Positions 1 through 40,220 of a DNA stretch of 40,220 bases are shown piece after piece (the first letter of the stretch is position 1; the number at the start of each line of letters is the position of its first letter). A model generated the notes under the pieces. It worked only from the letters and a program-made list of their open reading frames with translations. It was not told where the DNA came from and made no database searches. The DNA is from a virus (taxonomy: Duplodnaviria > Caudoviricetes). The stretch covers positions 1 to 40,220 of the IMG/VR virus record IMGVR_UViG_3300030330_005698. One strand, 5' to 3'. The translations under genes were made by a program, and so were the position numbers.

Positions 1-3000
1 TCAGCACTTAGAAAAACAATACCTCTATTTATAATAAATGACCCGGCACAATCAGATTATAGATTATTTGTTGACATGGCTGGACAACATTATGATATCT
101 TATTAAACTATATAAAAGGCTTAGGAAAATTACATGATAGAGATGAAGGACTAACAACAGGTCTATCAAAAGATACTATTAGTGAATTACTAAAATCTTA
201 TGGGTGGAATTCAGAACTTGGATTTAATACTGAGGAACTTTGGAAATATGTTTTAGGCACAGACAATAGTGGTAGTTATCAAGCAACAGAACCTGATGGA
301 ACATCAGTTATATTTAATCAAAGTGAATCATTGCCTAGAGATGAAATAGGTAAAGAAATCCTAAATAGAATTCTGAACAATTTACCATACATCTATAAAA
401 CAAAGGGAACAGAGAGAAGTATAAGGGCTCTAGCAAACTGTTATGGAATCCCAGATACTATTTTGGATATAAATGAGTTTGGAGGGCCTAGCCGTGATAA
501 AACAGCAAATATTAAACATAAGCGTAGAAAGTTTACATTTGCATTGCAGTTTGATGGTGATGATTCTCAAATTAGTGTACCTTGGCATTCTGTAAAAGGA
601 GGTGATGATTTTGAAGGTTGGCCAATGCACCAAGAAGTTAGAATTAAGTGTTCAGGTTCTGGTACAAAAAGAAATCAATCTATTCTTGCAACATCATTAA
701 GTAGTGCACAAAATAAAGATGAACACTTTACAAATCTAAATGTATTTGGTACATCAAGTGTAGGGTGGAATCTTTGGATGGAACATACTGCATCATATAG
801 TGGAAGTAGTGATTGGGGCCGTTTACATTTTTACATTACAGGTAGTGAAGTAGAAACATCTGGGTCTGCAAGAGCATCAGCATCCATTACATTTACAGCT
901 ACAGCAGCTGCACAAGGTCCAATGATTGAATTAACATCATTCTTAAAAAATACTGGTCCATTTGATAGCCCGTCAAGTATATTAAAACAGAGAAGACAAT
1001 ATCGTGCAATGACAGAGTCTGTTTCAAATGGTGCAACCATTTCTGGTGTTATAAGAGCTTTCTCTGCATCATCAGACCCAGCTGTTATGGCAAGTAACCT
1101 AGCAGAAGCAATTACAAATGTAAATGGTCACCGGTCCAGGATGTCAGTATCACAATCAGGTAATACACTATTTATATTCCAAGCAAATGAAGGTCAAGCA
1201 GGTAACCTACCAGTTTCAGGTGCAGATGGTTTTAATAATCATATTGTTGGAACTTTACCAACAGTAATGGTTGGAGGAAGAGATGCGCCAGGTAGAATGT
1301 TAAGTGCATCAACAGATTACTTACCATTGTATAATGGTGACTTTTGGAACATTAGTCTTTCAACAAATAAACAAATTAAACCTGAAACAACAGCCTCAAA
1401 TAATCTTGCTGCTTTAGGACAAAGTGCAAGTGTACAGGATGTAGTATTTCAAATAACTGCAAAGTTAGCAGCCGACCATGCTGATGGGAAAATTACACAT
1501 AGTGGTAGTGCAGAGCTTAGATTAGATAATACAATTGATAGTATTTCTGGAAGGTCATCTGGAAGTTATCTTCGTTCTTGGACACTACAAGCTCCATATA
1601 AATCTGGAAATGAAAGTGCTGTATTTATTGGAGGTGTAAATGATAGCGAATGGATAACTCATGGAATTACACATAAGTTTTCTGGGTCTATGCAAGAGTA
1701 TAGTCAATACACTGAAGAGTTAGAAGATGACATTTTAGATATTCATACATTATCACCACAAGCAATTGTTGGAAACCACTTTACTTCTTCATTTGATAAA
1801 TTGATTAGACGATACCCTATGGGTACAGACTTAAATGACTTAAATCATAATACATTTGTTGTAATATCATCTAGTCATCCACAACAAGCATTTTCTGAAT
1901 ACACAGACCAAAAAACATTTCCTGCACATGGTACCGCATCAGGGTTTAATGACATAGGTTCTGGAAAAGTACATTATGAAAACTTTGATGAATTATATTA
2001 TACAACAATGCCAGACATTATTGGTGAAAGACCAGTATCTCATAAAATAAGAATTGAGGATAACACACTTACTTCACAATCACTTCAACCAATATTTACT
2101 GGTGTTAGTGTAGAAACCAGTTCTTTTGATACTCATCCATTGGACTCTAATAGATTAAGTGTAGGTTTAAGTCCATCACAAAATATAAATCTTGACATTG
2201 CATACCAATTTGGTAATCTTTCTTTAGATGATTTTGTTGGTGACCCACGTGATGAATACAAAACAGAATATACAACACTATCAACAGTTCAAGATGCATA
2301 TTTCAAAAAATTTAGCGGAGCATATAATGTAGCTGCATTTAGTAGACTTTTAAGATTCTTTGATAAATCTCTTTGGCAACAAATTGAAAGTCTAGTTCCT
2401 GCAAGAGCAAATGCATTTATAGGTTTAATAATTGAACCTACAATATTAGAAAGACCAAAGATTAAAAGAACAAGACCTTCATTTGAAAGTTTATATTACA
2501 CGGCATCAGTATCTGTTAGTTGTATACATACTGCAACTGTACCAACACCAACATCAAAATCAAACAGTGGTAGTTTAAGTGTAGCTGCTTATGGTACATT
2601 GGATGATGATATTGAATTACTTGTTAGTGATGGTGGTCATAGATACAAAGAACAAGGTTCAATATATAGATATGGCGTCAACACTGGTAGTGGAGCATAT
2701 GAAACAACCCAGTCTGTTGAATTGTATGGTGTATTAACTTCCGTAACAAGTTCAAGAGTTTCTGAAACTTGGCAAGACTTGGAAAAGTTTTTCTTTCACC
2801 CATCAAGTTCTGGACAAGACAGACACATGGAGGCAGCATACAGTGCAGCTGCTGATAATTTCTATTCTTCGTCAAGAAAGTTTGCAGAGGTACAAGATTA
2901 TAGGCCAAGACAAATTAAAAATTTATATTATGACGGTGTACAAATATTTAGTGAATTAACTACGCATTCAACTGGTTCTGGAACAGGTTCAGTATATCTT

Positions 3001-3471
3001 ACTTTTCCAAGTGCAGTTGACTCAGGTTCAACATATGCTGATTCAACGGATACACCAGATGGACAGCCAGTGATAGAGGTATTTACAGTCAATCCTAATA
3101 CAGTTGTTGTTGGTGGTACACCTAGCCAAGTATCACAAGTACCAACAGCTGTGAATTCACTTAATCTTGCAAACTTAACAATGGCTCCACCAGAAATAAC
3201 ATTGGCTACAGGAAAAGGTGGTGTTGCTGGTGTAAATGCAGCTGTTAAGGGTGCAACATCAGCTGTGGCAAACGTGGTATCAAATGTTGTAGTTAGTCCA
3301 CCTTCGCCACCAAGTCCATATATTCCAACAGCTCCGGCAATATCAACTAAGACGTCATATACTGCAACAGCAAAAACATCAACAGCTACAACTGCAAAAT
3401 CAAATACAGTTGCAACAAAAGGAAATGTATCATTTGCTAAAGGTGGTGGAAAAGGATATGCAAAGAGCTAA
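1..3471 (+). CDS. Baseplate wedge-like virion structural protein (5'-truncated; frame is open from base 1, before the ATG at 76)
   Basis: Frame 1 reads SALRKTIPLFIINDPAQSDYRLFVDMAGQHYD with no stop. It contains NNLPYIYKTKGTERSIRAL, resembling the YxxKGT motif of T4 gp7/P2 gpI-like wedge proteins, and later IESLVPARA. The protein is Ser/Thr/Gly-rich. Confidence 0.6.
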   Translation, partial: SALRKTIPLFIINDPAQSDYRLFVDMAGQHYDILLNYIKGLGKLHDRDEGLTTGLSKDTISELLKSYGWNSELGFNTEELWKYVLGTDNSGSYQATEPDGTSVIFNQSESLPRDEIGKEILNRILNNLPYIYKTKGTERSIRALANCYGIPDTILDINEFGGPSRDKTANIKHKRRKFTFALQFDGDDSQISVPWHSVKGGDDFEGWPMHQEVRIKCSGSGTKRNQSILATSLSSAQNKDEHFTNLNVFGTSSVGWNLWMEHTASYSGSSDWGRLHFYITGSEVETSGSARASASITFTATAAAQGPMIELTSFLKNTGPFDSPSSILKQRRQYRAMTESVSNGATISGVIRAFSASSDPAVMASNLAEAITNVNGHRSRMSVSQSGNTLFIFQANEGQAGNLPVSGADGFNNHIVGTLPTVMVGGRDAPGRMLSASTDYLPLYNGDFWNISLSTNKQIKPETTASNNLAALGQSASVQDVVFQITAKLAADHADGKITHSGSAELRLDNTIDSISGRSSGSYLRSWTLQAPYKSGNESAVFIGGVNDSEWITHGITHKFSGSMQEYSQYTEELEDDILDIHTLSPQAIVGNHFTSSFDKLIRRYPMGTDLNDLNHNTFVVISSSHPQQAFSEYTDQKTFPAHGTASGFNDIGSGKVHYENFDELYYTTMPDIIGERPVSHKIRIEDNTLTSQSLQPIFTGVSVETSSFDTHPLDSNRLSVGLSPSQNINLDIAYQFGNLSLDDFVGDPRDEYKTEYTTLSTVQDAYFKKFSGAYNVAAFSRLLRFFDKSLWQQIESLVPARANAFIGLIIEPTILERPKIKRTRPSFESLYYTASVSVSCIHTATVPTPTSKSNSGSLSVAAYGTLDDDIELLVSDGGHRYKEQGSIYRYGVNTGSGAYETTQSVELYGVLTSVTSSRVSETWQDLEKFFFHPSSSGQDRHMEAAYSAAADNFYSSSRKFAEVQDYRPRQIKNLYYDGVQIFSELTTHSTGSGTGSVYLTFPSAVDSGSTYADSTDTPDGQPVIEVFTVNPNTVVVGGTPSQVSQVPTAVNSLNLANLTMAPPEITLATGKGGVAGVNAAVKGATSAVANVVSNVVVSPPSPPSPYIPTAPAISTKTSYTATAKTSTATTAKSNTVATKGNVSFAKGGGKGYAKS

Positions 3472-3515
3472 ATGAATATATATACAATAAAAAGAGATAA
3501 ATTTAATTGACAATT

Positions 3516-3524
3516 ATATTTATA
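3516..3524 (+). promoter_or_regulatory. Putative late promoter motif ATATTTATA
   Basis: The same 9-mer recurs in intergenic gaps before operon-leading genes; here it is 28 nt upstream of the ATG at 3553. Confidence 0.55.
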
Positions 3525-3552
3525 CTATATAGAAATACATTAGGGGATACAC

Positions 3553-4266
3553 ATGGGATATTTAGATAATACATCAGTAACAGTAGATGCTATTCTTACC
3601 AAGAGAGGAAGAGAACTTCTAGCTCAAGGTGATGGTAGTTTTAACATAACAAAATTTGCATTAGCAGATGATGAAATAGATTATAGGCTTTATGACTTTT
3701 CTCATACAAATGGTTCAAACTTTTATGGTGAAGCAATAGAAAGATTGCCTTTATTAGAAGCATTTCCAGATGATGATGCTGCAATGAGATATAGACTTGT
3801 TACTTTAACAAAAAATACAACTCAAATTCCAATTGTTGGTGCGGGTGGTGCAACAGCATATACTGTTAATTCAGGACAAGGAACACTTACAGTTATAAAT
3901 CCAACAACAACAAATGGTGTTGACCCTACATATACTGCAACTGTAAGTGATACAAATGTATTAACAATTGAGGCACTAGGAACTATAGTTTCACAGCCTG
4001 CAACTAACCAAGCAGGAAATAATGCAATGGCATTTGCTAAAGGTTCGTCAAAAGGTGCAGCAACACTTTACTCAACATCAACAACAACGGCACCAGTTAC
4101 AAATACTGTTGTTACTGGAACTGGTGTTAGTGTACAAGGAACTCAGTTTAGAATAACACCTGTATATAATGCAGTTGAAGATAAGGTTGCTTCTGTTACT
4201 ATTACAGGAAATGCAACAGGCGGACAAGTAGTTGTTACATTTACAGTACTTAAAGCAACAATATAA
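3553..4266 (+). CDS. Virion structural protein (baseplate/tail-collar-like N-terminal motif)
   Basis: The N-terminus AILTKRGRELLAQG...ITKFALADDEIDY resembles the start of tail-collar-fibre (DUF3751/P2 gpH-like) domains. The C-terminus is Thr-rich and beta-like. Confidence 0.55.
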   Translation: MGYLDNTSVTVDAILTKRGRELLAQGDGSFNITKFALADDEIDYRLYDFSHTNGSNFYGEAIERLPLLEAFPDDDAAMRYRLVTLTKNTTQIPIVGAGGATAYTVNSGQGTLTVINPTTTNGVDPTYTATVSDTNVLTIEALGTIVSQPATNQAGNNAMAFAKGSSKGAATLYSTSTTTAPVTNTVVTGTGVSVQGTQFRITPVYNAVEDKVASVTITGNATGGQVVVTFTVLKATI

Positions 4267-4281
4267 TAAGGAGAGAACAGA

Positions 4282-5346
4282 ATGTCATTTAAGTTTTTTG
4301 ACCCAGTAAGTGATATAGTAACAGACATAGCTTCTGCAACTGTAACAACGGGGTTATTTGGTCCTGGTGATAGTGCAAGTTTAGGATTTATGACTCAGAG
4401 TTTAACACAAGGAGATTCATCAGCATCTTATTTAGCAGTGTATCAAAAAGACCCAGCATTAGATGATTCAGCTGTACAATTTTCAATTGCATTTGGACAT
4501 AGAGCCGGTAGTGGTTCAGTAAGACAGTCAGGTGCAACTAAAGGTTTTTCACCAACAAGAGCAATATTTCAACAATATGTTAGTTTACTAGAGGATGCAC
4601 CAACATCAACATCAGACACGGATATTTATGGTGGCTCATTTACTTGGGGAACTTCAAATGCTGGTGGAAACGGTGATACTGAATTTACATCTTCATTTTT
4701 TATTGCATTTAATCGTGCAAGATATAAACAAAATTTGGAAGCAAAAAGTTTTGAACTTACATTGAGTGGATCATCATACGGAGTTGGTGGATTGAGATTA
4801 ATGGCTGATACATCTGTAAAGTATACAGCAAATGGTTTAATAAGATTTCCAATTAGAAGTGGTTCAGAGGATAGTCCTGTTGCAACAACTCGTGCATATG
4901 GGTGGATATATCCAGAAGTTGGTGTAGTTGTATTAGATGCAGGTTCAGTTCAAGCATCAGCTTCAATAGCAACTCCACATACAGATAATACAGATGATGG
5001 TGTACCATTAAAGGTATTGAAGGCAATTCAATCTGGTTCAGGCCAAATGACAAATGCACCACATGACATGCAAATGAGAGCTGAAGAGTCTGTAAAGAGT
5101 ACATACTATTTTGTACGTGCAAATAATGGTGAATTTAATTATAGTCAAAATCCATCATTTTCTACAGGTTCTGGAGGTGGAGGTTCATTAAGATATCCTG
5201 AATTCATATCTAATCCATCAACATATATTACCACAATTGGAATGTATAATGATAACAATGAACTTATTGCAATTGCAAAATTAAGTAAACCACTTGAGAA
5301 AAGTTTTAACAGAGAAGCTCTTGTTCGTGTAAAACTTGACTATTAA
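4282..5346 (+). CDS. Virion structural protein (baseplate/tail-associated)
   Basis: AGGAG RBS at 4269. The C-terminal YITTIGMYNDNNELIAIAKLSKPLEK resembles the tail-collar 'EIGLY..G.LIA' motif. It is a paralog of the next gene. Confidence 0.55.
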   Translation: MSFKFFDPVSDIVTDIASATVTTGLFGPGDSASLGFMTQSLTQGDSSASYLAVYQKDPALDDSAVQFSIAFGHRAGSGSVRQSGATKGFSPTRAIFQQYVSLLEDAPTSTSDTDIYGGSFTWGTSNAGGNGDTEFTSSFFIAFNRARYKQNLEAKSFELTLSGSSYGVGGLRLMADTSVKYTANGLIRFPIRSGSEDSPVATTRAYGWIYPEVGVVVLDAGSVQASASIATPHTDNTDDGVPLKVLKAIQSGSGQMTNAPHDMQMRAEESVKSTYYFVRANNGEFNYSQNPSFSTGSGGGGSLRYPEFISNPSTYITTIGMYNDNNELIAIAKLSKPLEKSFNREALVRVKLDY

Positions 5347-5366
5347 TACTTTAAGGAGGAAATTAG

Positions 5367-6758
5367 ATGTCAGTATTTAAGGACATACCCTCCGAAGATG
5401 TAAGTATAACAACTTATATTTCTCACAAGAACTGGGAAATAAGTAGTTCAGCTGCAAGTTCATCCTTTGGAGTGTTAACATTTTTAGCGAGAAGTGGTTC
5501 TTTTGGAAAGCCAGAAAGCTATACTGCACTAGGTTCTTCCCATACCTATTTTAATAAATTGGTTTGGGATTCTATTAATCATCAACTATACAATCCTCAT
5601 AGGTTAACCCAAGAATCATTAGGTCAAGGACAAGCTTCTTCATCTGCACAAGGAGGTTCAGATTTTTTATCTAGCTTTTTACCAGATACTGTTACACCTC
5701 TTCAAGATTCCGCATCAATTTTATCTATTCCACAACAACTATATGGTAATGAAATAAAGGAAGGAAGTTTATCAATAGAATCAGGTTCAACAACTCTTAC
5801 AGATAGTCATGGTAAAATATTAAGTGCATCAGTTGAAGTTGGTGATATATTTTATAAAAAAGGAATTGTTGTAATTACCCACCCGTCAAAATCTATTCAA
5901 GATTCATTAAACACTTACAACTTAAGGTTTAAGGCAACACTGCCAATTACACAACGTGAATATACATGTAGAATTATGGACTACGAATATAACCACACGT
6001 TTAACCCGTCTGTTAGGGAAATAGATAATTTTGTTAGGACAAGAAATTTAGGTGCCATACCTAGTGGTAAAAAAATTGATTTAGATTTAAGTACACCAAT
6101 ATTTGGTACAACTATTCACGGTGTGAGTAAATCTATAAATGATATTGCAGAAGCCAATTCAACTTGTGACCTTTCGTTACAAAGTACATCTGGAAGTACA
6201 AGTATAAAGATAGAACAAACAGCTGCAAATGGTGGAGGCTTTTTAGAGATACCTTTTAATACAACATATAACCAAGCAGCAATTGCACCTAATACACAAG
6301 AAACAATATATTCTTTAGAATTTGATTATGTACATGGAAGTGGAAGCTTAGACGTATTTGCAAATACAACACAAGATGAACTTACACCAACAAATGGCGG
6401 TCTGCTATTATCATTAACAGGTAGTGACAATGGAAATAAAGTATCAACAGTATTTACATCTTCACAAAACTTTGATGCATCATTAAGATTAATTCCAAAA
6501 GGTATTCAACCCGGCCACCAAGATAAAACATTTTCATTTATTAAGAACTTAAAGTTACAAGAACTTGTACCATCATCTAATCAAATACGGTCTGATAAGC
6601 TAAAAGGGTTTACATCTAGTTCTGACTTTACACCATACATTACAGCAGTAGGATTGTACAACCCGGCAAATGAATTACTAGCTGTAGGTAAGTTAGCTAT
6701 TCCAACAAAAAAGTCTATGGACTATGATATATCAATAGTTGTAAGATTTGATTTATAA
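5367..6758 (+). CDS. Virion structural protein, paralog of 4282..5346
   Basis: AAGGAGG RBS at 5353. It shares EYNHTFNPS (vs EFNYSQNPS) and the C-terminal YITAVGLYNPANELLAVGKL with the preceding gene. Confidence 0.55.
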   Translation: MSVFKDIPSEDVSITTYISHKNWEISSSAASSSFGVLTFLARSGSFGKPESYTALGSSHTYFNKLVWDSINHQLYNPHRLTQESLGQGQASSSAQGGSDFLSSFLPDTVTPLQDSASILSIPQQLYGNEIKEGSLSIESGSTTLTDSHGKILSASVEVGDIFYKKGIVVITHPSKSIQDSLNTYNLRFKATLPITQREYTCRIMDYEYNHTFNPSVREIDNFVRTRNLGAIPSGKKIDLDLSTPIFGTTIHGVSKSINDIAEANSTCDLSLQSTSGSTSIKIEQTAANGGGFLEIPFNTTYNQAAIAPNTQETIYSLEFDYVHGSGSLDVFANTTQDELTPTNGGLLLSLTGSDNGNKVSTVFTSSQNFDASLRLIPKGIQPGHQDKTFSFIKNLKLQELVPSSNQIRSDKLKGFTSSSDFTPYITAVGLYNPANELLAVGKLAIPTKKSMDYDISIVVRFDL

Positions 6759-6774
6759 TAATAGGAAATAAGTT

Positions 6775-7179: not shown

Positions 7180-7213
7180 TTTTATTTGTCAAATATTTTA
7201 GTTATATTACTAT

Positions 7214-11335: not shown

Positions 11336-14300
11336 ATGTCAAATTCTGCTGTTGTAAGGCGGCTTGACCTTAAACCTACGTATATAACAGACACGTCTGA
11401 TAGTTCAGGTGATTTTTTTAGAGTTACGCAAATACCTAATATATTTAAGTTAGGTACTAACACTATAAAAATAAATCCAGACCCAGAGCGTTTACAGCCA
11501 GGCACTACAGTTGAATTGGAAGTTTTAGACCGTAGGTTATTGGCATTACCAACTCAAATTTTACCAGGTGTTGATGGGTCCGGTAGAAAAACTGTCGAGA
11601 TAGAAGTAGTTGGCTCAACTCCACCTGAAGAAATAACAATAACAATCATTGGTGATTTAAGAAGGTCACTATTACCTCCAGGGTTCAACCCGTCTAGAAG
11701 CGTAAAGTGGTCAAGAACAATAATTGCTGACCCTCTTGAAGTAACTATAGATGGTAGTGTTTCTGGTTCATTGTTATCAGGGTCCATGTTTATAGGTAAT
11801 GGTGTATCAAATGGTTTACAACTTAAAGGTGATGAAGAAGGTGCATTTTTAAGGTCACAAGGTTATTTTGGATTTGAAAATGCAACATCAGGTGTAGGTA
11901 ATGGTTTTTTACTTTATAGTGGTTCAATATTACCTAATAGTGGTGATGAATATGGTGGTGTTGGTTTGGAAATGGTTATTGACCAAAATAATTTTTTCAA
12001 ATATAGAACATCAGATAACTCAATAGATATTAGAACACAAAAATTCTTTTTTGGTAGTTCTTCACAATTTATATCAGGTTCAGATGGACAAATAGAAATT
12101 AGTTCATCAAACTTTCACCTAAATAAAGATGGTGAAGTTGTTTTACAAGGAACAATTACTGCACAGGCTGGTGGTGACATTGGTGGATGGCATGTTGGTA
12201 CAAGTGTACTATCATCGAGTAATAATACCGTTAGGTTAGACCCTGATGGTCCATATTTTATATCTTCTTCAGGATTTCAAGTTGATGGTGCAGGTGCTAT
12301 AACTGCAAGTGCTGGTTTAATAGGTGGCTGGGAGGTACCAACAGGTTCAGCACTAGATGGTTTCTTTTCTAGGGATAGTAATGGTGGAGTTGTATTAGAC
12401 TCTGCTCAAAAAATTCTTAGGATATTAACTGGTAGTGCAACTACTGATACCATTATAGAGTTAGGTCAAATTTCAACAAATAAATATGGAATAATTGGTA
12501 AAAAGTTTGGAACAAATAGTACTACATTCAAATTAGGTGAAGATGGAAATGAAATTGCCGGTATAACTTTTGATGACGGAAAATTAAATGTTGGTAGCAT
12601 ATACCACATTTCAGCATCAACAAAATTAGATGACCCAATTGGATTTATAAGTTCATCACAGTTCAAAGTATCACCATCTGGTAAAATAACAGGTAGTGAA
12701 GTACTTCTTGGTAATAAGGCTGGTGGAAACTTTTTACAATTTGCTGGAAGTACATTAACAGTACAAGGAACAATTACCGCTGATAATATTCGTACACCGG
12801 CATCAATAGGAGGTTCACCATCAACGGAAGCAAATGCTTCAGCATCTATAAAGTCAGATGGTTTTGCACGATTTGTTTCTGCAAGTATTGGTGGTTGGAG
12901 TGTAGATGAAGGTACACTAACAGATATTAGTGGAGCAGTTAAACTTGATTCACAAGGACCATATTTTATATCATCGTCAGGATTTCAAATAGACGAAACT
13001 GGTGCCATAACTGCAAGTGCAGGTAACATTGGTGGCTTTGTAATAGATAGTGATTCTATAACATCAACTGGAATTGCAATTAGGTCAGGAGATGCAATTG
13101 AACTTGGAAGTGCAACTGCAATTGGTACTGGGCAAGGAGTATTTTTAGGAAATGATGGTACATTTAGAGCAGGTAACCCAGCTGGCCAACAAATAAAATT
13201 TGACGGTACAAACATAGTTCTTAGTTCATCAGCATTTTATCTTGGAGGAGGTAGTCAATTTATATCTGGGTCTAGTGGAAATATTGAAATATCATCAAGT
13301 AACTTTCATTTATTAGGAGGTAACATAACAGCAAGTAATGTTTCATTAACAGGTACTATAACAGCAACAGATGGAAAGATTGGAGACTGGAATATAAATG
13401 GCTCATCTCTTTTGTCCTCTGGCTTTAGCAATGTAGCAACTGGAGCCGGTATTAGAATAGAAGGTGATTCAAATCCTAGAATATATGTTCAATCAGGTAG
13501 TACAGCCGAACAAGTTTCAATGTTCTTTACATCGGATAATAGTTGGGGTATAATAGGTAAAAGTAATAATAACAATGTATTCCAATTAGGTTCTACAAAT
13601 CAAATTGCTGGATTTACATTTACTACTACAAAGATAATAACATCAGGTGTTGAACTAGCAAATGCAGACTCCAATGCTTTATTTATATCATCAAGTGCAT
13701 TTAAGGTTTCACACACTGGTAATGTAACTGCAAGTAATGTTGATTTATCTGGAAAAATAACTGCAACTGAAGGTGAAATTGGTGGATTGACAATTGGTAA
13801 TAAATCATTATCTGTTCCAAACATATTTCAAATTTCATCATCCAATAACGATGAAGATGCAGTTGGATTTATAAGTTCATCACAATTCAAAGTATCACCT
13901 GTAGGCTCTGTAACTGGAAGTTCAATACTTATTGGTAATAAAGCCGGTGGAAACTTTTTACAGTTTCAAGGTAGCACTCTAACAGTTCAAGGTAGTATCA
14001 CAGCAGATAATATTAGAACTCCAGCACAAATAGGTGGTGTATCATCAACAGATACCAATGCATCATCATCTATAAAGGCAGATGGTTTTGCACGATTTGT
14101 TTCAGGTACATTTGGTGGAATAGACTTTGTTAAAGGAAAGCTTTTTGTAGTGCGTGGTGAGGATTCTAATGTATACCACATATCATCATCACTAAATGTA
14201 GAAGACCCAGTTGGATTTATAAGTTCATCAAAATTTCAAGTAAGTGCTGGGGGAAATGTAACAGGTAGTAATGTATTGTTTGATGGTGGAAAAATTGCAG

Positions 14301-16637: not shown

Positions 16638-17855
16638 ATGGGAAACACAGTTAATTTAACAGAAGGTGAAGTATATAGATTTGGAAAAATAGATAACCAG
16701 GCCTTTATACTTGACAGTTCAGATGGTGCTGGTGGTGCTTTTATTACTAGACCATCTGCTGCTGGGTCAATAGTGGATATGACTGAAGCAGGTAATAATG
16801 GAACTTTAGAAATAAGAAATAGTGCTGGTAATCAAAATGTTCCACAATTACTAATTCACAATAACAGTACTAGTGCATTGGCAGATTCATATATAGAGTT
16901 TCAAAGTCAAAATCAAGGAGCAGCTGATGTTCATTGGAGTATAGGCATAGATACTAATGATACAACTGCTTTCAAAATTAGGAATACTACTTCAGTAGGA
17001 GGTAATGCAAGCGTTGAGTTAAAGACAGATGGTAGTGTTGAGCTGTGCGAGAACCGGGTAGTATTTGGAGGTGGAAACTCACATGGTAGTTCAGCAACCA
17101 TATCAGGAAATAGTGGTGATATAATATTTGAGGTTTCTGGTGATAGTGATAGTATGTTCATCCAAAATATAAATTCAGGTGACTACTTTTTTGGAAACTC
17201 ACAGCAAGACAATGGAATTGCATTTTTTGATGGTACTGGTGGAATGAGGTTTTATTACAACGGTGAAGCAAGAATGCATATAGATAACACAGGTGGAGTA
17301 GAAATATATAGGGATTCCGTTGGAGGAAGGGCATTAAGACTTGAAGGAGATGGTGGTAATTTTTCATATATTCTAGATATAGCATCACTCAATTCTGCAA
17401 GTTCAGTTAAGGTTGTTGCAATTGCACAAGGTTCTGGTGAATCTGAAACTTTAATACTTGAATCAAATGGCGACATACAACATGCTGGAAGTATAAGCGC
17501 AATATCAGATGAGCGTATGAAAAAAAATATTGTAAGTCTAGATAGTGGTTCATTAGATAAAGTGCTTAAACTTAATCCTATTAATTTTAACTGGAAAGAT
17601 GAATATGATCTTGATAGCACTATTAAAAAGACAGGCTTTTCTGCACAAGCAGTTGAAAAGATATTTCCAGAAATGGTTAAAATAGTTGATGACGTAAATT
17701 GTGAACCTAGAAAAAATGGAGGTAAGGGTATGAACACAGGCTTTTCAGATAGAAGACTGCTAAATGAAAAAGATATGATACCTCACTTAGTAAAATGCAT
17801 TCAAGTACTAACTGAAAGGGTAACTGAACTGGAAAATAAACTAGGAGGCAATTAG
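16638..17855 (+). CDS. Tail fibre/spike protein with C-terminal peptidase S74 intramolecular chaperone
   Basis: ISDERMKKNI autocleavage motif, then LNPINFNWK, GFSAQAVEKIFPEMV and a C-terminal coiled coil LVKCIQVLTERVTELE. Confidence 0.85.
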   Translation: MGNTVNLTEGEVYRFGKIDNQAFILDSSDGAGGAFITRPSAAGSIVDMTEAGNNGTLEIRNSAGNQNVPQLLIHNNSTSALADSYIEFQSQNQGAADVHWSIGIDTNDTTAFKIRNTTSVGGNASVELKTDGSVELCENRVVFGGGNSHGSSATISGNSGDIIFEVSGDSDSMFIQNINSGDYFFGNSQQDNGIAFFDGTGGMRFYYNGEARMHIDNTGGVEIYRDSVGGRALRLEGDGGNFSYILDIASLNSASSVKVVAIAQGSGESETLILESNGDIQHAGSISAISDERMKKNIVSLDSGSLDKVLKLNPINFNWKDEYDLDSTIKKTGFSAQAVEKIFPEMVKIVDDVNCEPRKNGGKGMNTGFSDRRLLNEKDMIPHLVKCIQVLTERVTELENKLGGN

Positions 17856-26959: not shown

Positions 26960-27289
26960 ATGGCAACAGTAACATTAAACAATCCAACAGACACTGGTGA
27001 TTTAGTACATCGAGGTGGTTCAATTGCAAAGTATGATAAGGTAACAAAGGTAACGGGTGCAGCTGAATTTTATGCAACTGGTTCCAATGGTGATGTTGTT
27101 GCATTTTTGGCTCCATCAAGTGGTGCATTTGCTGCAACTGATTTTTTAACACCACAATGTGGAGGAGATAATTTTCCATTAGGTTTTGCACCAGCAGCAA
27201 CAGTAATTGAAATGGCAGTATCATATGTATCAGCATCAGGAACAGCTGAAGTATACTTATTTCACAAGGAACGTAGAGGAGCTCTATAA
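26960..27289 (+). CDS. Small hypothetical protein, probably virion-associated
   Basis: AGGAG RBS at 26949; Ala/Gly/Thr-rich with beta-type composition. Confidence 0.65.
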   Translation: MATVTLNNPTDTGDLVHRGGSIAKYDKVTKVTGAAEFYATGSNGDVVAFLAPSSGAFAATDFLTPQCGGDNFPLGFAPAATVIEMAVSYVSASGTAEVYLFHKERRGAL

Positions 27290-29643: not shown

Positions 29644-31218
29644 ATGAGCAATAAAAAATCAATAAAAGATATTATTCGTGAAGAGTATAAACGGTGTTCA
29701 TCTGACCCTGTACACTTTATGCGAAAATATTGCCAAATTCAACATCCGACTCGTGGAAAGATAAATTTTAATTTATATCCATTTCAAGAAAAAACTTTAC
29801 AACAACTACAAGGTAATGATTACAATATTATATTGAAGTCAAGGCAGTTAGGTATATCTACACTATCTGCTGGTTATTCATTATGGTCAATGTTATTTAA
29901 TGAAGATTTTAATGTTTTGGTTATTGCGACAAAACAAGATGTTGCAAAAAATCTTGTAACAAAGGTTAGAATAATGCATGACTATTTACCTAGTTGGTTA
30001 AAGGGTCAGTGTACAGAGGATAATAAATTATCATTAAGATTCAAAAATGGTTCTCAGATAAAGGCAGTATCTGCTGCTGGAGATGCAGGACGTTCTGAAG
30101 CATTATCATTATTAGTAATGGATGAGGCAGCATTTATTGATAAGATTGATGAAATATGGGCATCTGCACAACAAACACTTGCAACAGGTGGAAAGGCAAT
30201 TGTATTATCTACACCAAATGGAGTTGGAAACTTTTTTCATAAAACATGGACAAAGGCCGAAGCTGGTGAAAACTTATTTAATACAATCAGACTTCACTGG
30301 AGCCTACACCCAGAACGTGATAAAGATTGGCGAGAACAGCAAGATGAATTGCTAGGACCTAAAATGGCGGCACAAGAATGTGATTGTGATTTTGTAAGTT
30401 CAGGTAATACTGTGGTTGATGGTAATCTTATTGAATGGTATAGAGAGTCACATGCTCAAGACCCTATAGAAACAAGAGGCTTTGATGGAAATTATTGGAT
30501 TTGGGAACAACCAAATTACAATAAATCATATATGGTAGTTGCCGATGTAGCTAGAGGTGATGGTACAGACTTTTCAGCATTTCATGTAATAGATATTGAT
30601 GATTGCTCTCAAGTTGCAGAATATAGAGGCCAATTAACTCCTAAAGAATTTGGAAATATGTTAGTTGGTGTTGCAACAGAATACAATGATGCATTACTTG
30701 TTATTGAAAATGCCAATGTAGGTTGGGGTTCAATCCAAAGTGCAATAGATAGAGATTATAAAAATTTATATTATACATATAAACAAGATGGTGTTGTTGA
30801 TGCAACTACTCAACTAACTAAAGGTTATGACTTGAAAGATAAAGGTCAAATGACTCCAGGATTTACAACATCAGCAAAAACAAGACCACTTTTAATATCG
30901 AAGATTGATATTTATTTTAGAGAAAAGTCATTCATTGTCAGGTCAAAAAGGCTATTAGATGAACTATTAGTTTTTATATGGAACGGTCACAAGGCCGAGG
31001 CACAGAATGGCTATAATGATGATTTGGTAATATCTTTAGGAATAGGTTTATGGGTAAGAGATACTGCACTTAAACTTAGGAATGAAGGTATTTCTCTTAA
31101 TAGAAGGGCATTGAATTCAATATCTAAAACTGGAGTTTACTCAGGTGTAAATCCAAACACGGATTGGTCAATGAAAATTAAAGGTAACGACGAAGATATT
31201 AGTTGGTTAATAAAATAG
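29644..31218 (+). CDS. terL: Terminase large subunit (T4 gp17-like)
   Basis: LYPFQ Q-motif, Walker A KSRQLGIST, Walker B LVMDEAAF, STPNG motif III, and RNase H-like nuclease motifs ADVARGDG.D and NDDLV. Confidence 0.96.
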   Translation: MSNKKSIKDIIREEYKRCSSDPVHFMRKYCQIQHPTRGKINFNLYPFQEKTLQQLQGNDYNIILKSRQLGISTLSAGYSLWSMLFNEDFNVLVIATKQDVAKNLVTKVRIMHDYLPSWLKGQCTEDNKLSLRFKNGSQIKAVSAAGDAGRSEALSLLVMDEAAFIDKIDEIWASAQQTLATGGKAIVLSTPNGVGNFFHKTWTKAEAGENLFNTIRLHWSLHPERDKDWREQQDELLGPKMAAQECDCDFVSSGNTVVDGNLIEWYRESHAQDPIETRGFDGNYWIWEQPNYNKSYMVVADVARGDGTDFSAFHVIDIDDCSQVAEYRGQLTPKEFGNMLVGVATEYNDALLVIENANVGWGSIQSAIDRDYKNLYYTYKQDGVVDATTQLTKGYDLKDKGQMTPGFTTSAKTRPLLISKIDIYFREKSFIVRSKRLLDELLVFIWNGHKAEAQNGYNDDLVISLGIGLWVRDTALKLRNEGISLNRRALNSISKTGVYSGVNPNTDWSMKIKGNDEDISWLIK

Positions 31219-31237
31219 GTTATATAGGAGAAAATAA

Positions 31238-33079
31238 ATGGCAGACAAAACTCTTTTTGGACGATTAAGAAAACTCTTTTCAACAGGCGTAATTATGCGT
31301 AGAGTTGGAACTGGGCTAAAGGTTGTCGATACACAAAGAATACAGTCATCAGGAAATCTTGAAACAAATAGACTTGTTGATAGATACAATAGATTACATT
31401 CACCATCAGCACAATACTCGGTTTATCAACCAGGACAAGGACATGTTGCATTAAGAATAGAATTATTTAATGATTATGAAGCAATGGATATGGATCCGAT
31501 TATTGCATCAGCATTGGATATATATGCAGATGAATGTTGTGTAAAAAATGAATTTGGTGATATACTAACAATTAATACAACAAATGATGCAATAAAGAAA
31601 ACACTTCATAATTTATTTTATGATGTAATGAATATAGAATTCAACCTTCATCCTTGGACTAGAAACCTTGTAAAGTATGGTGATTTTTATTTACAGTTAG
31701 ATATTACTGAAAAGTATGGTGTTACAGGCGTACACCCAATGTCTTCTTATTATGTAATACGTGAAGAAGGTCTAGACCCAAATCAACCAGAGTATGTTAG
31801 GTTTGTTGTTGACGAATCTCAAGGTGGACAAATTTATGGTTCTAATATGTCTCATAAAGAATATTTAGAAAACTATGAAGTTGCACATTTTAGATTACTA
31901 GGTGATACGAACTTTTTACCCTACGGAAGGTCTATGGTTGAACCTGCTAGAAAAGGTTGGAAACAATTAACTCTTATGGAGGACGCAATGTTAATTCACA
32001 GAATTATGCGTGCACCTGAAAGAAGAGTGTTCAAAATAGATATTGGAAATATACCTCCAAGTGAAGTTGATAATTATATGCAACAAACAATTAACAAAAT
32101 GAAAAAAGCACCATTTGTTGATGAAAAGACTGGGGACTATAACTTAAAATTCAATATACAAAATATGTTGGAAGATTATTACCTTCCAGTTAGAGGTGGC
32201 CAAAGTGGAACTGAAATAGAATCATTAAGTGGAATGGAATTTAATGGTACTGATGATGTTGAATACTTAAGAAATAAAATGATGGCTGGTTTGAAAATAC
32301 CAAAAGCATTTTTAGGATATGATGAAAATGTAGAAGGTAAAGCTACACTAGCTGCTGAAGATGTTAGATTTGCTAGAACGATTGAAAGAATACAGAAAAT
32401 CATGGTTAGTGAATTAACAAAAATTGCAATTGTACATTTGTATACTCAAGGATACCATGAGTCTGATTTGGTTAATTTTGACTTATCATTAACAAATACA
32501 TCAACCATTGCTGAAAATGAAAAAATAGAACTTTGGAATAGTAAAGTTAACTTGGCATCTTCAATGAAAGATATAAATATGATGTCAGAAGATTGGATAT
32601 ATAAAAATATATTTAATTTATCAAGTAGAGAATCAGATACTGAAAAGAAACGAGTAATAAACGACTTAAAGCAACAGTTTAGACGTGAGCAAATAAAAAT
32701 GGAAGGAAATGACCCAGCACAATCTGGTGAAGCATTAGGAACTCCACATACACTTGCAACCTTAGACCCTGAAAAGAATTTGGAACCACGTGATACTGCA
32801 ATATTTGGTAATGATGAAGAAACTAGAGGAAGACCAGAAGAAGGTCCTAAACCTGGAACAGACTCATCAGCAAGAGGTAGGGACCCATTGGGAAATAAAA
32901 CTTTAACACAAGATTATAATAATCGTGATAGGCGAACAGTGTCAACTGAAATAAAAAGGTCATTGGACGCAAAGTTTAATAAGAAAAAGGTTATTAGTGA
33001 AATGTATACTGAAGATAATGTTAGTGAACCTAGCTTATTGGATGAAAAAAACATCATTGATGATGAAAAACTACAATAG
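31238..33079 (+). CDS. Portal protein (T4 gp20-like)
   Basis: QLTLMEDAMLIHRIMRAPERRVFKIDIGNIP, MLEDYYLPVRGG..GTEIESL.G and LKIPKAFL; AGGAG at 31226. Confidence 0.96.
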   Translation: MADKTLFGRLRKLFSTGVIMRRVGTGLKVVDTQRIQSSGNLETNRLVDRYNRLHSPSAQYSVYQPGQGHVALRIELFNDYEAMDMDPIIASALDIYADECCVKNEFGDILTINTTNDAIKKTLHNLFYDVMNIEFNLHPWTRNLVKYGDFYLQLDITEKYGVTGVHPMSSYYVIREEGLDPNQPEYVRFVVDESQGGQIYGSNMSHKEYLENYEVAHFRLLGDTNFLPYGRSMVEPARKGWKQLTLMEDAMLIHRIMRAPERRVFKIDIGNIPPSEVDNYMQQTINKMKKAPFVDEKTGDYNLKFNIQNMLEDYYLPVRGGQSGTEIESLSGMEFNGTDDVEYLRNKMMAGLKIPKAFLGYDENVEGKATLAAEDVRFARTIERIQKIMVSELTKIAIVHLYTQGYHESDLVNFDLSLTNTSTIAENEKIELWNSKVNLASSMKDINMMSEDWIYKNIFNLSSRESDTEKKRVINDLKQQFRREQIKMEGNDPAQSGEALGTPHTLATLDPEKNLEPRDTAIFGNDEETRGRPEEGPKPGTDSSARGRDPLGNKTLTQDYNNRDRRTVSTEIKRSLDAKFNKKKVISEMYTEDNVSEPSLLDEKNIIDDEKLQ

Positions 33080-34903: not shown

Positions 34904-35680
34904 ATGATGAAAATGAATTTACAAATTTTAACTTGGAATCAATGGCTAAGATTCCCAAACAACAAAAAGCTTGCTGAAGAAAATATGCACAAAGCAAAGG
35001 CGGAATATCTTCGTGAGCAGTATATGGCTGAGCAGTATTATAACTATGTAAATATTGCACAACCTACTGGAAATAAGAAAAAGATAACTGGTTTAACAAA
35101 CCAAGTAACAACATTAACATGGGAAGGTACAGGTGCTGACCCATATTATGCAAATGGAGTAGCAGGTGGTGGTTTACACAATTACCATTTTGAATTAGAA
35201 TCTGTTACAGATGGTGAGCCATTCCAACACAATAGACAAAGATATGCATATGTATTTGTTTCTTCGTCAGTGTCAGGAAACTCTTCAGTATATGCAGACT
35301 TATTACAAAGAAAAGATGGTGCTGGTGCAGATTACTTTGATGAAGTACATACTTCTTCATATACAACAGCTGATAACCCGAATATAACAGCATCAGCTGC
35401 AACTGCCATGATTGACACTATTAATGCAACAGCTGCAACATACTTTACTGCAACGACTAGTTCACGTGGTGAAACCCTTATTGTTACAAACGTATTCAAA
35501 GGGATAGTATCTTCATCAGCTGAATCTTCAAGGTTGACGTCAACTGCATCAATTGCTGTGACAACAACTGGATTTGATACATTCACTGATAGTACAGGTC
35601 AAACAGGCGTTAACTCTCCTCAACAAACAATTGATGATAGAGGAATATCTGATAAGTATAAAAGATTTAGTAACCAGTAA
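34904..35680 (+). CDS. Hypothetical protein, probably virion-associated (true start may be 34913)
   Basis: AGGAG at 34899 is best spaced for ATG 34913. Ser/Thr/Ala-rich C-terminal domain. Confidence 0.65.
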   Translation: MMKMNLQILTWNQWLRFPNNKKLAEENMHKAKAEYLREQYMAEQYYNYVNIAQPTGNKKKITGLTNQVTTLTWEGTGADPYYANGVAGGGLHNYHFELESVTDGEPFQHNRQRYAYVFVSSSVSGNSSVYADLLQRKDGAGADYFDEVHTSSYTTADNPNITASAATAMIDTINATAATYFTATTSSRGETLIVTNVFKGIVSSSAESSRLTSTASIAVTTTGFDTFTDSTGQTGVNSPQQTIDDRGISDKYKRFSNQ

Positions 35681-36352: not shown

Positions 36353-36364
36353 TTGGAGAATATA

Positions 36365-37001: not shown

Positions 37002-37340
37002 ATGGGAAAATTCAAACCTAGGACCAGAAATGGTCAAGTAATTAAGAACTACATAAAAAGAACAGATTTTGTTTTACCTGGATGTGCTAATGGTGTAAAA
37101 GTACCAAATGATACATCAAGTGCATTGGAAAAATCATTAAAGATTTTGAAAAGACAACTTAAAGACACTGAAATGTTTAGTGAATTGAGGGAGAGACAAT
37201 ATTTTGAAAAACCTTCAGCTAAGCGTAGAAAGCAAAAGCAACAAGCCGTAAGAGCACAAAGGAAAAAGGAGAGAGATAGAAAGCGGTATGATAAGGAAAA
37301 TCCTTGCTGGACAGTAATAGTAAAAGGCAAAGCACAGTAA
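37002..37340 (+). CDS. rpsU: Phage-encoded 30S ribosomal protein bS21 with N- and C-terminal extensions
   Basis: VKV...ALEKSLKILKRQ....MFSELRERQYFEKPSAKRRKQKQQAVR matches the bS21 signature (ExALrrFKr...R.yyEKPs.kRk). Confidence 0.9.
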   Translation: MGKFKPRTRNGQVIKNYIKRTDFVLPGCANGVKVPNDTSSALEKSLKILKRQLKDTEMFSELRERQYFEKPSAKRRKQKQQAVRAQRKKERDRKRYDKENPCWTVIVKGKAQ

Positions 37341-37347
37341 TATAACT

Positions 37348-38658: not shown

Positions 38659-38669
38659 GGAGAAATGAA

Positions 38670-40220
38670 ATGTCAAATATAGGCAACTTATTAAATGAAG
38701 CTGGCACTCAAATGAGAAAGCAACAAGATGCTACTAAACATCTTACTAATAAATGGAACAAAACTGGACTATTAGAGGGTATCGCACACGAGTACGATAA
38801 AACTGGTATGGCTGTTTTACTTGAAAACCAAGCAAGACAACTTATCGATGAAAACTCATCTACTGGTACAACTACTTCATCTGAACAATGGTCAGGTGTA
38901 GCTCTTCCATTAGTTAGAAGAATTTTTAGTGAAATTGCTGCTAAAGATTTTGTAAGTGTTCAGCCAATGAACCTTCCTTCTGGACTAGTATTTTATTTAG
39001 ATTTCAAATACGGTTCAGCAGAAGGAATCAACGATGGTAATAGATTTACCAAAGGTTCCGATATATTCGGAAACACATCTGCATCAGGCGACCCAACTGG
39101 TGGTCTTTACGGTGCAGGAAGATATGGATATTCAATCAAAGATAAATCTGCAACAAGAGCAAGTTTAACATTTGCAACTGCATCTTGGAAAGAAGGTGAC
39201 TTTGATGCGGACTTCTTTTCTGCATCTAGTGCAACTACTGCATTAGTAGCAAAAACTGGAGACGCTCCAATTAAATTAACTAAAGTATCATTTGGTATTG
39301 GTGACTTAAGTAATGTTGACAAATTGTCAGTAAGATCATGGGTGATAACTGGTTCATCTATTGATGCTGCTGATACAGTTGGTCAATTTAACTTCTTAAC
39401 TGATTCAAATGGAAATGAAGTAGTACTTACAGATAACGTTTCAGATAGCGTTGCAGTTTCTGCATCTTTATTTGTTAAATTATCTCCTGGTGCTGGTGGA
39501 GCTTCAAGTTCATTAGGCTTAAATTATAAAGCACAACCTGCTGATAATTCAAGAGGTGACTTTGAAGACACAACTGGTGGTAACCCTGATAAGGATGCTG
39601 CTGGTGATATTCAGATTCCAGAAATTGATGTACAACTAAGAAGTGAAGCTATTGTTGCTAAGACTAGAAAGTTAAAGGCAGTTTGGTCTCCTGAGTTCGC
39701 TCAAGACTTAAATGCTTACCACTCAATTGATGCTGAAGCTGAATTAACTTCTATGTTATCTGAGTATGTTTCTATGGAAATAGACTTAGAAATTTTAGAT
39801 ATGTTAATTCAAAATGCATTAACAGTTGAGTACTGGTCAGCTACAATTGGTGAAACTATCAATGCTGAAGGTACTGCATTTGAAGCTGCATCTAATGCTG
39901 AGGCTTACCAACAAGGTACTTGGTTCCAAACTTTAGGAACTAAGATACAAAAAGTATCAAACAAAATACATCAGAAAACATTAAGAGGTGGCGCAAACTT
40001 CGTAGTATGTTCTCCTGAGGTAGCAACTATTCTAGAATCAATTCCAGGATACGCTGCTGATACTGATGGTACTGCAATGGGTAAAACAGGATTCGCAATG
40101 GGAGTACAAAAAGTAGGTGCATTGAATAACAGATTTACTGTTTACAAAAACCCATACTTCCAAAGAAATGCAATCTTAATGGGATACAGAGGTACTCAGT
40201 TCCTAGAAACAGGTGCTGTA
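38670..40220 (+). CDS. Major capsid protein (T4 gp23-like), 3'-truncated (missing from the ORF track)
   Basis: AGGAG at 38658, ATG at 38670, and the frame is open to the window end. Motifs: MAVLLENQ, LPLVRR, VQPMNLPSGLVF, AKTRKLKAVWSPEFAQDLNAYHSIDAEAELT, RGGANFVVCSPEVA. Confidence 0.97.
   Translation, partial: MSNIGNLLNEAGTQMRKQQDATKHLTNKWNKTGLLEGIAHEYDKTGMAVLLENQARQLIDENSSTGTTTSSEQWSGVALPLVRRIFSEIAAKDFVSVQPMNLPSGLVFYLDFKYGSAEGINDGNRFTKGSDIFGNTSASGDPTGGLYGAGRYGYSIKDKSATRASLTFATASWKEGDFDADFFSASSATTALVAKTGDAPIKLTKVSFGIGDLSNVDKLSVRSWVITGSSIDAADTVGQFNFLTDSNGNEVVLTDNVSDSVAVSASLFVKLSPGAGGASSSLGLNYKAQPADNSRGDFEDTTGGNPDKDAAGDIQIPEIDVQLRSEAIVAKTRKLKAVWSPEFAQDLNAYHSIDAEAELTSMLSEYVSMEIDLEILDMLIQNALTVEYWSATIGETINAEGTAFEAASNAEAYQQGTWFQTLGTKIQKVSNKIHQKTLRGGANFVVCSPEVATILESIPGYAADTDGTAMGKTGFAMGVQKVGALNNRFTVYKNPYFQRNAILMGYRGTQFLETGAV

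What the first reader, a model, noticed from the sequence alone, without database searches (positions are those of the whole stretch)
1..40220. Virion-wide [S/T]-[G/A/S]-S tripeptide signature: a candidate post-translational modification (e.g. glycosylation) sequon system
SEEN: SGS/SAS/SSS/TGS/TAS/TSS tripeptides saturate unrelated predicted exterior proteins. Examples are the wedge gene (NSGSY, CSGSG, ITGSE, ASASI, LSAST, HSGSA, FSGSM), 4282 (DSASL, GSGSV, LSGSS, RSGSE, QSGSG), 5367, 11336, 19010, 26960 (ATGSN, VSASG) and 34904 (VSSSV, ITASA). They also occur in the variable insertion region of the major capsid protein (TSASG, ATASW, FSASS, ITGSS, VSASL). By eye they are nearly absent from TerL, portal, protease, scaffold, endonuclease, primase and SbcCD. 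Codons vary, so the signal is at the protein level rather than a DNA repeat. INFERENCE: the same short motif in many different folds suggests a recognition sequon for a modifying enzyme such as an O-glycosyltransferase or kinase. Such a coat could shield or stabilise the virion. I do not know of this being described for this clade.
Basis: partly seen in the sequence, partly recalled or inferred. Interest (0 to 1): 0.85.

Follow-up and report, generated by a model that had tools for sequence, protein, structure and literature searches.

The report
Serine tag tracks phage glycosyltransferase cassette
Several predicted outer proteins of this uncultured aquatic phage and its relatives carry the ordered tripeptide Ser/Thr-Gly/Ala/Ser-Ser about three times more often than chance, and it likely marks where the relatives' conserved three-enzyme cassette of predicted sugar-transferases would attach a sugar coat; no sugar has been shown, but a cultured relative makes it directly testable.

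Summary
In detail: 157 [ST][GAS]S sites against 49 expected in 8 of 32 window proteins, and 14 against 15 in the other 24. It is protein-level and directional. 'Virion-wide' overstates it: three fibre or baseplate-region genes lack it. The window is a T4-like, probably Bacteroidota-infecting phage related to Flavobacterium phage immuto. Across relatives the sites sit in the capsid insertion region (162 of 178) and outer sheath domains (56 of 62), and are kept between orthologues through S/T and G/A/S swaps. The window holds no glycosyltransferase, but all 9 relatives at least 54% complete carry a GT4-GT4-GT2 cassette. Its GT2 is closest to peptide and flagellin glycosyltransferases (ThuS, SunS, GmaR). 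The motif follows the cassette rather than kinship in one contrast: a distant jumbo phage with the cassette has it, a closer one with only the first gene largely lacks it. Published analysis of immuto DNA reports no sugar-modified base. Best reading: a phage-encoded O-glycosylation sequon (about 0.65), chemically untested. This scan noted the same motif before on other DNA. New variant of known virion glycosylation.

The parts
1..3471 (+). Baseplate-region protein, 5' end cut; likely wedge subunit. 28 motif sites
   Evidence: 28 vs 8.2; orthologue of immuto gp109, which lies just after gp25 and gp6 wedge genes; Atlas lead to Laminin_G_3 and Baseplate_wedge clusters, score 0.86-0.93
3553..4266 (+). 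Conserved baseplate-region protein without the motif (internal control)
   Evidence: 0 sites; 0 vs 5.2 in 7 dereplicated orthologues
4282..5346 (+). Baseplate-region protein of unknown fold, 9 sites
   Evidence: family O/E 3.0; Atlas gives only unnamed viral clusters
5367..6758 (+). Baseplate-region protein, 13 sites
   Evidence: family O/E 3.8
11336..16618 (+). Large repeat-containing fibre-like protein, 50 sites spread evenly
   Evidence: fibre role is inferred from repeats and position
16638..17855 (+). Tail fibre with S74 chaperone domain; not enriched (2 vs 1.8)
19010..22564 (+). Large repeat-containing fibre-like protein, 42 sites
26960..27289 (+). Small protein, 2 sites (weak)
   Evidence: p 0.04
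34904..35680 (+). Head-cluster protein of unknown function, 6 sites
   Evidence: 6 vs 1.2
38670..40220 (+). T4 gp23-like major capsid protein, 3' end cut; 7 sites
   Evidence: PF07068 and phrog_138; fold match to T4 gp23
39000..39554 (+). MCP residues 111-295, the variable insertion region that aligns with T4's I-domain and linkers; holds 6 of the 7 MCP sites (residues 137, 170, 184, 227, 264, 279)
   Evidence: model confidence mostly 60-84 in residues 151-290 with several segments under 50, sites at strand ends or in loops
29644..33079 (+). TerL and T4-like portal, no sites (controls)

Best explanation
The ordered tripeptide [S/T]-[G/A/S]-S is enriched and conserved in several predicted outer virion proteins of this phage clade, and it is likely the recognition site at which a phage-encoded cassette of predicted glycosyltransferases (GT4, GT4, GT2) would O-glycosylate the particle. 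Shown: enrichment, direction, position in the capsid insertion region and outer sheath domains, retention between orthologues, and the cassette in relatives. Inferred: the enzymes act in the cytoplasm on folded subunits or assembled particles, because fully buried parts are not enriched; a first sugar goes on a motif hydroxyl, more likely the exchangeable S/T with the fixed third Ser as the recognition point (a guess by analogy with N-X-S/T); the other cassette enzymes and the variable sugar-pathway genes downstream build a lineage-specific glycan. The priming enzyme is most likely the GT2 or the second GT4, since the first GT4 alone goes with little motif. The purpose (stability, less aggregation or adsorption, masking from proteases or grazers) is untested. 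That the window's own phage carries the cassette is inferred from relatives.
For: Specificity: in 106 dereplicated clade orthologues [ST]-X-S is enriched for G 5.7, A 2.4, S 1.9; T[GA]S 3.84 vs S[GA]T 1.24; third position S 4.2, next T 1.4. After a hydrophobic residue plus [ST][GA], the next residue is Ser in 227 of 480 cases, against 29 of 299 in two cyanophages and 3 of 90 in T4. Place: MCP 162 vs 57 in residues 111-295, 5 vs 23 in the core, 42 sequences; sheath 56 vs 19 in the part aligned to T4 gp18 88-345, 0 vs 3.7 and 2 vs 1.3 in the inner domains, 10 sequences (exposure per PMC3004832). Portal, tube, hub, tape measure, gp25, gp6 and two others pooled 31 vs 67. Selection: aligned sites kept in 324 of 460 comparisons in 65 MCP pairs (25% expected from background) and 364 of 498 in 62 neck-protein pairs (41%), about a quarter of kept sites with changed letters. 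Cassette: all three genes in 9 of 9 contigs at least 54% complete and one at 36%, of 25 searched; second GT4 follows the first in 49 of 50 and 55 of 55 loci with room, GT2 nearby in 37 of 38 and 45 of 46 (the two sets overlap). GT2 model (pLDDT 96.5): best folds ThuS Z 19.1, rmsd 2.2, 174 aligned, and SunS Z 18.0; best sequence match GmaR, E 5e-14, full length. Both GT4s match chlorovirus B736L best. Profile: LR756508 is closer to the clade than G041 on capsid, helicase, gp6 and tube, but G041 has the full cassette and motif-rich fibres, while LR756508 has only the first GT4 and 0 of 395 ORFs enriched. Immuto DNA shows dA, dC, dT and fdPreQ1 only (10.1101/2023.04.13.536721, section 17).
Against: No chemistry. 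The window has no glycosyltransferase and is all that is held of this genome. The cassette is a core gene block, so co-occurrence inside the clade is one event; the discriminating contrast rests on three genomes (RM378, G041, LR756508). LR756508 is not clean: [ST][GA]S O/E 1.35 genome-wide and 15 vs 8.6 in its 8 orthologues of motif-rich proteins. LR756511, with no cassette gene found, shows 24 vs 13.4 over 50 kb. G041 has the cassette but no excess in capsid (1 vs 2.1), neck or sheath (5 vs 3.3). The closest cellular homologues of the GT2 (33-42% identity) lie in Bacteroidota chromosomal loci that look like cell-surface polysaccharide clusters (my reading of the neighbours), and carbohydrate-acting GT2 folds follow only 1.3-2.4 Z units behind. 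Avoidance in non-targets is not shown: non-structural blocks give 117 vs 134 and T4 is just as low. Variable outer domains are also simply the least constrained. Some presumed outer proteins lack the motif (16638, 23127).
Confidence: 0.65

Rival explanations
1. The motif is structural or physicochemical: a small-residue strand end or turn that shows two hydroxyls on one face (hydration, ice or particle non-adhesion, fibre packing), with no enzyme involved.
For: Flanks prefer hydrophobic residues at -1 and +3, as in an alternating beta strand; 6- and 13-residue spacings in the two fibre proteins; MCP sites lie at strand ends or loops; cyanophage Ser/Gly-rich proteins show a mild excess, O/E 1.2.
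Against: A physical property gives no reason for T-G-S over S-G-T (3.84 vs 1.24) or for the same tripeptide in capsid, neck, sheath and wedge folds; orthologous folds in T4, cyanophages and LR756508 do without it; thermophilic RM378 and cold-water immuto both have it.
Confidence: 0.14
2. The motif is a modification or binding site, but for something other than this cassette: a host cytoplasmic enzyme, a non-sugar modification, or a phage assembly factor.
For: All specificity, position and conservation results fit any reader. The profile test covered only 37 of 179 immuto ORFs, so an unrecognised gene could be missed.
Against: Among those 37, the GT2 is the only gene found in RM378 and G041 and not in LR756508; the second GT4 fits too once its cross-match to the first is set aside. 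The Bacteroidota sequon D-[ST]-[AILMTV] (recalled) and N-X-S/T are not enriched (0.85, 0.96). No protein kinase is annotated in immuto.
Confidence: 0.13
3. The cassette glycosylates another target (host surface, DNA at low level, or long Ser/Thr low-complexity tracts in fibres) and its match to the motif is coincidence.
For: GT2 homologues in bacterial surface-polysaccharide-like loci; long GTSGSS-type and TPT-rich tracts in some relatives; only three informative genomes.
Against: Immuto DNA modification is accounted for by fdPreQ1; host-surface conversion is typical of temperate phages per PMC12619734; this leaves the motif unexplained.
Confidence: 0.08

Closest known systems
Mycobacteriophage virion glycosylation (Che8 and others; Freeman et al. 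2023, not held; seen only as cited in PMC12619734 and PMC11256854)
   Same: Tailed phage with its own glycosyltransferase genes; glycans on virion proteins, if the reading is right.
   Different: There the glycans are reported at the C-termini of capsid and tail tube; here a short internal tripeptide recurs many times in capsid insertion domain, neck, sheath, baseplate and fibres, the tube is not enriched, and nothing is chemically shown.
Chlorovirus capsid glycosylation by virus-encoded glycosyltransferases (PMC7019647, passages)
   Same: Virus-encoded, ER-independent glycosylation at non-canonical sites; both GT4s match chlorovirus B736L best among solved structures.
   Different: Eukaryotic virus, N-linked on Asn; the match to B736L covers only part of the C-terminal domain and that review's text does not mention B736L, so its role is not established here.
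GmaR flagellin O-GlcNAc transferase and SunS/ThuS glycocin glycosyltransferases (GT2)
   Same: Best sequence (GmaR) and fold (ThuS, SunS) matches of the cassette's GT2; these act on proteins or peptides.
   Different: The phage enzyme is a bare 206-residue catalytic domain without TPR or dimerisation parts, 17% identical in the fold alignment, and far below the TIGR04195 cut-off (19 vs 350 bits).
Immutovirus / Mel-JY01 / RM378-like T4-type phages; moraphages (PMC12619734)
   Same: Window MCP hits immuto, Mel-JY01, LR756508 and RM378 best among 50,697 phage records; moraphages are reported to have four core glycosyltransferase groups of unknown target.
   Different: The paper does not describe the motif (term search); membership of the window in the moraphages was not tested.

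Membership tests
Phage-encoded virion glycosylation (mycobacteriophage type) | Covalent glycans on virion proteins | not testable with these tools
   Needs mass spectrometry of virions
Phage-encoded virion glycosylation (mycobacteriophage type) | Glycosyltransferase genes in the phage genome | tested here: inconclusive
   None in the 40 kb window, the only DNA held; cassette in 9 of 9 relatives at least 54% complete and in immuto and Mel-JY01
Phage-encoded virion glycosylation (mycobacteriophage type) | Sites at the C-termini of capsid and tail tube | tested here: not met
   Motif sites are internal; MCP core 5 vs 23; tube 1 vs 1.2 in 8 orthologues. The window MCP itself lacks its last residues.
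Bacteroidota general O-glycosylation (sequon recalled) | D-[S/T]-[A/I/L/M/T/V] enrichment | tested here: not met
   O/E 0.85 in clade outer proteins, 1.15 in window motif-rich proteins
N-linked glycosylation | N-X-S/T enrichment | tested here: not met
   O/E 0.96
SunS family peptide S-glycosyltransferase (TIGR04195) | Score above curated cut-off | tested here: not met
   15-19 bits vs 350; fold likeness only
GT2 (GT-A fold) glycosyltransferase | PF00535 match, DxD motif and GT-A fold | tested here: met
   PF00535 above cut-off for immuto gp178; invariant DADE; fold matches
DNA-glycosylating phage enzymes | Sugar-modified base in virion DNA | not testable with these tools
   Published LC-UV-MS/MS of immuto DNA reports dA, dC, dT and fdPreQ1 only; minor bases could be missed; supplements not seen
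T4-like myovirus related to Immutovirus | Gp23-type capsid, Gp20 portal, Gp21 protease, clade-level MCP identity | tested here: met
   (quick tree only)

The most novel reading that the evidence does not exclude
A large, abundant group of aquatic Bacteroidota phages runs its own sequence-directed protein O-glycosylation system: a mobile GT4-GT4-GT2 cassette reads a three-residue sequon that evolution writes onto any outward-facing virion surface, and swappable downstream genes set the glycan, giving phage 'serotypes' with thousands of glycans per particle and a new minimal cytoplasmic tag for glycoengineering.
Probability: 0.45. Interest if true: 0.85.

Novelty: new variant of a known kind. 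Interest (0 to 1): 0.66.

Why it matters
Glycosylated tailed phages are reported as rare (PMC11256854, passage). If this reading holds, a widespread aquatic lineage (roughly 1,500 to 10,000 matching stretches estimated in the viral collection) is sugar-coated through a defined sequon. That would give a target to core phage glycosyltransferases usually assigned to DNA, explain missing peptides in virion proteomes, bear on particle stability and grazing in water, and offer a short O-glycosylation tag. A cultured member with a laboratory host (immuto on Flavobacterium sp. LMO8) makes one mass-spectrometry run decisive.

Tried and rejected
DNA repeat or codon artefact: rejected. Composition artefact: rejected by whole-protein and 20-residue shuffles. 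Pure repeat expansion: rejected for gene 1, capsid, neck and sheath. Active avoidance in non-target proteins: considered and not claimed, since non-structural blocks give O/E 0.88 and T4 is equally low. Search for a motif-free subclade: MCPs with 0-2 sites (L013, L038, L049, L076, L032) mostly sit in short contigs; L076 and L032 still have motif-bearing neighbours, L049 does not (4 vs 6.8) and the 2 kb contigs say nothing. L395 (66% identical to the LR756508 capsid, 0 sites, neighbours 5 vs 7.2) is a second motif-poor relative but only 19% complete, so its cassette status is unknown. More LR756508-like genomes were not found. A different tripeptide in relatives: none found broadly; G041 adds TPT-type repeats in a few proteins. 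The MCP model was too poor (pLDDT 60, pTM 0.47) and gave no coordinates for solvent exposure. PHROGs and Pfam gave no names for the motif-rich genes other than MCP (one unnamed PHROG for 11336). The careful MCP tree did not finish; only the quick tree was read. Five bacterial genomes with GT2 homologues showed no clade capsid gene. No complex prediction was run.
Full report
What the window is. The 40,220 bases are the whole record held. All 32 genes I accepted lie on the + strand. PHROGs and Pfam name a T4-type TerL, portal, prohead protease and Gp23 capsid, a primase, endonuclease I, fused SbcCD, holin, an S74-bearing tail fibre and ribosomal protein bS21. Among 50,697 phage records the capsid's best hits are LR756508, Mel-JY01, four Flavobacterium phage immuto records and Rhodothermus phage RM378. 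A Bacteroidota host is inferred from these relatives.

The observation. The motif is in excess in 8 of 32 proteins (157 sites vs 49 expected) and at chance in the other 24 (14 vs 15). It survives whole-protein and local shuffles, five of its six forms rank in the top seven of an unbiased tripeptide scan, it uses varied codons and is absent from the other five frames. Repeats inflate genes 11336 and 19010 but not gene 1.

It is a clade trait. Because the motif was picked from this window, other genomes are the fair test. In cultured immuto the two structural blocks hold 202 sites vs 94 expected and the rest 35 vs 47. With low-complexity runs masked, ORFs individually enriched at p under 0.001 number 3 of 135 in immuto, 8 of 127 in Mel-JY01 (150 of 190 kb read), 7 of 141 in G009, 6 of 135 in G013, 4 of 79 in G012, 1 of 89 in G003, 1 of 112 in RM378 and 5 of 225 in G041, against 0 of 395 in LR756508 and 0 in 50 kb stretches of T4 (43 ORFs), S-SKS1 (29), Syn1 (25) and LR756511 (43). 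Cyanophages show a mild non-directional excess (O/E 1.4-1.5 for [ST][GA]S, T[GA]S equal to S[GA]T).

It looks like a recognition site. In 106 dereplicated orthologues of seven motif-rich families, position 1 accepts S (4.5) or T (3.8), position 2 G, A or S, position 3 only S (4.2; T 1.4). Four of the seven families were classed as outer after seeing the counts; capsid, sheath and neck (gp13 homologue) are outer by T4 homology. Between close orthologues sites are kept in 324 of 460 capsid comparisons and 364 of 498 neck comparisons, against 25% and 41% expected from nearby S, T, G and A; the commonest changes are S/T swaps at position 1 and G/A/S swaps at position 2. About 30% of sites turn over. 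The background residues may be less constrained for other reasons, so this control is generous.

It lies on outward-facing domains. In 42 capsid proteins, 162 of 178 sites fall in window residues 111-295 (57 expected), 5 in the core (23 expected) and 11 in the N-terminal part (16 expected). I set these borders after seeing the site list; the region aligns to T4 gp23 about 120-230, which I recall as the I-domain and linkers, and PMC9546572 (passages) places that domain on the outer surface without my seeing residue numbers. The sheath test used T4 gp18 borders fixed beforehand from recall and confirmed in PMC3004832 (passages): 56 of 62 sites align to the exposed domains I-II, 0 to residues 346-510, 2 to the inner C-terminal domain and 4 to the N-terminal 87; alignment in I-II is weak (17-20% identity). 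Portal, tube, hub, tape measure, gp25, gp6 and two more families pool at 31 vs 67. Per-residue exposure could not be computed.

A candidate writer. Immuto has a block of five annotated glycosyltransferases with an aminotransferase, epimerase, acetyltransferase and methyltransferase. Its first part, GT4 (gp181), GT4 (gp180) and GT2 (gp178), is conserved in order in Mel-JY01 and four IMG/VR contigs, while the downstream genes vary. Of 25 capsid-bearing contigs searched, 10 have the first GT4 and the GT2, including all 9 at least 54% complete; all 10 have the second GT4; the 15 without are 19-48% complete. In GenBank phages the first GT4 hits at 80% cover exactly the top seven capsid hits, plus two weak S-CBS4 records. 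The GT2 folds confidently and is nearest to the peptide glycosyltransferases ThuS and SunS; by sequence it is nearest to GmaR, described as a flagellar anti-repressor and O-GlcNAc transferase (PMC3150276, passages). Against a priming role, carbohydrate-acting GT2s follow closely, and its nearest bacterial homologues sit in loci that look like surface-polysaccharide clusters. Both GT4s are nearest to chlorovirus B736L. DNA is an unlikely target: LC-UV-MS/MS of immuto DNA found dA, dC, dT and fdPreQ1 (10.1101/2023.04.13.536721, section 17 and passages; figures and supplements not seen).

The one discriminating contrast. Of 37 immuto genes shared with both G009 and G013 (of 179), LR756508 scores higher than G041 for capsid (747 vs 355 bits), helicase (539 vs 229), gp6 (733 vs 275) and tube (213 vs 144), but lower for the first GT4 (315 vs 631), the second GT4 (24, a cross-match, vs 528) and the GT2 (none vs 279). 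The GT2 is the only one of the 37 found in RM378 and G041 and not in LR756508. G041, picked for its cassette before its motif content was known, has motif-rich fibre-like proteins (67 vs 20, 12 vs 4, 12 vs 3, 9 vs 1.4) though not in capsid, neck or sheath. LR756508 has the orthologous virion proteins with 15 sites vs 8.6, under 3 per 1000 residues against about 13 in the clade, and its two sheaths have 1 and 0. RM378 has a divergent cassette with two GT2-like neighbours and a weaker motif. This is three genomes, and the negative is not clean.

Mechanism and odds. Most likely (0.65) the cassette O-glycosylates exposed [S/T]-[G/A/S]-S sites on virion proteins in the cytoplasm, and downstream genes vary the glycan. 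Which hydroxyl is modified, which enzyme primes, when it happens and what it is for are inferences. Rivals: a structural hydroxyl motif (0.14), another reader or modification (0.13), a coincidental cassette (0.08).

What is known. Virion glycosylation by virus-encoded enzymes is known in mycobacteriophages (Freeman 2023, not held; seen through PMC12619734 and PMC11256854) and chloroviruses (PMC7019647, passages). PMC12619734 (abstract, section 12, part 1 of section 11) reports core glycosyltransferases in moraphages without a target. I found no paper describing this motif or glycosylated immuto-like virions in five searches of the held library (listings only), which lacks most subscription journals. 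This scan noted the motif, and a GT pair, on other DNA at least nine times; those notes are unchecked and are not evidence. I had found the GT4 pair before reading them; one note prompted the test of genomes lacking the second enzyme. Verdict: real, selected, clade-level motif; new variant of a known kind; interest 0.66.

Noticed in passing
window 37002-37340: Ribosomal protein bS21 between protease and scaffold genes, on the same strand as the structural genes; the bS21 phages of PMC9723584 carry it on the opposite strand, Mel-JY01 on the same.
   Followed up: partly
window 1-40220: GATC is strongly avoided (8 vs 108 expected), TGTG (29 vs 121) and CATG (77 vs 150) less so, suggesting restriction avoidance.
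   Followed up: no
window 8130-11282: SbcD-like and SbcC-like domains fused in one 1050-residue ORF.
   Followed up: no
window 22567-23864: A methyltransferase-like gene (my reading of the sequence; no family hit) and a weak CBM96-like gene sit right after the motif-rich fibre gene.
   Followed up: no
window 36353-36904: Small gene with an acidic D-x-D-x-D-G-D-type tract resembling a calcium-binding loop, between protease and bS21.
   Followed up: no
L163, L169, L174, L180, L183, L190 (upstream of the cassette): A motif-rich 450-770 residue gene often lies several genes upstream of the GT cassette, outside the structural blocks.
   Followed up: no
L085:2-3049; L027, L036, L054, L055, L070: Some relatives carry long GTSGSS-type low-complexity tracts in fibre genes, a possible second glycosylation substrate.
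   Followed up: no
L085:4750-8427; L098-L113: Extra GT4 domains in long proteins near the head genes of some relatives, one annotated as FkbM methyltransferase in Mel-JY01.
   Followed up: no
L092:25432-45435 (LR756508): The motif-poor jumbo phage still has its own long block of sugar-pathway-like genes after the first GT4, and two sheath paralogues.
   Followed up: partly
L086:34441-35932 (Mel-JY01): The first GT4 is annotated as two ORFs, a split or a sequencing error; the recorded cyanobacterial host looks odd for this clade.
   Followed up: no
L396, L397: Two bacterial MAG contigs carry the whole phage cassette in order, probably phage DNA binned into the genomes.
   Followed up: partly
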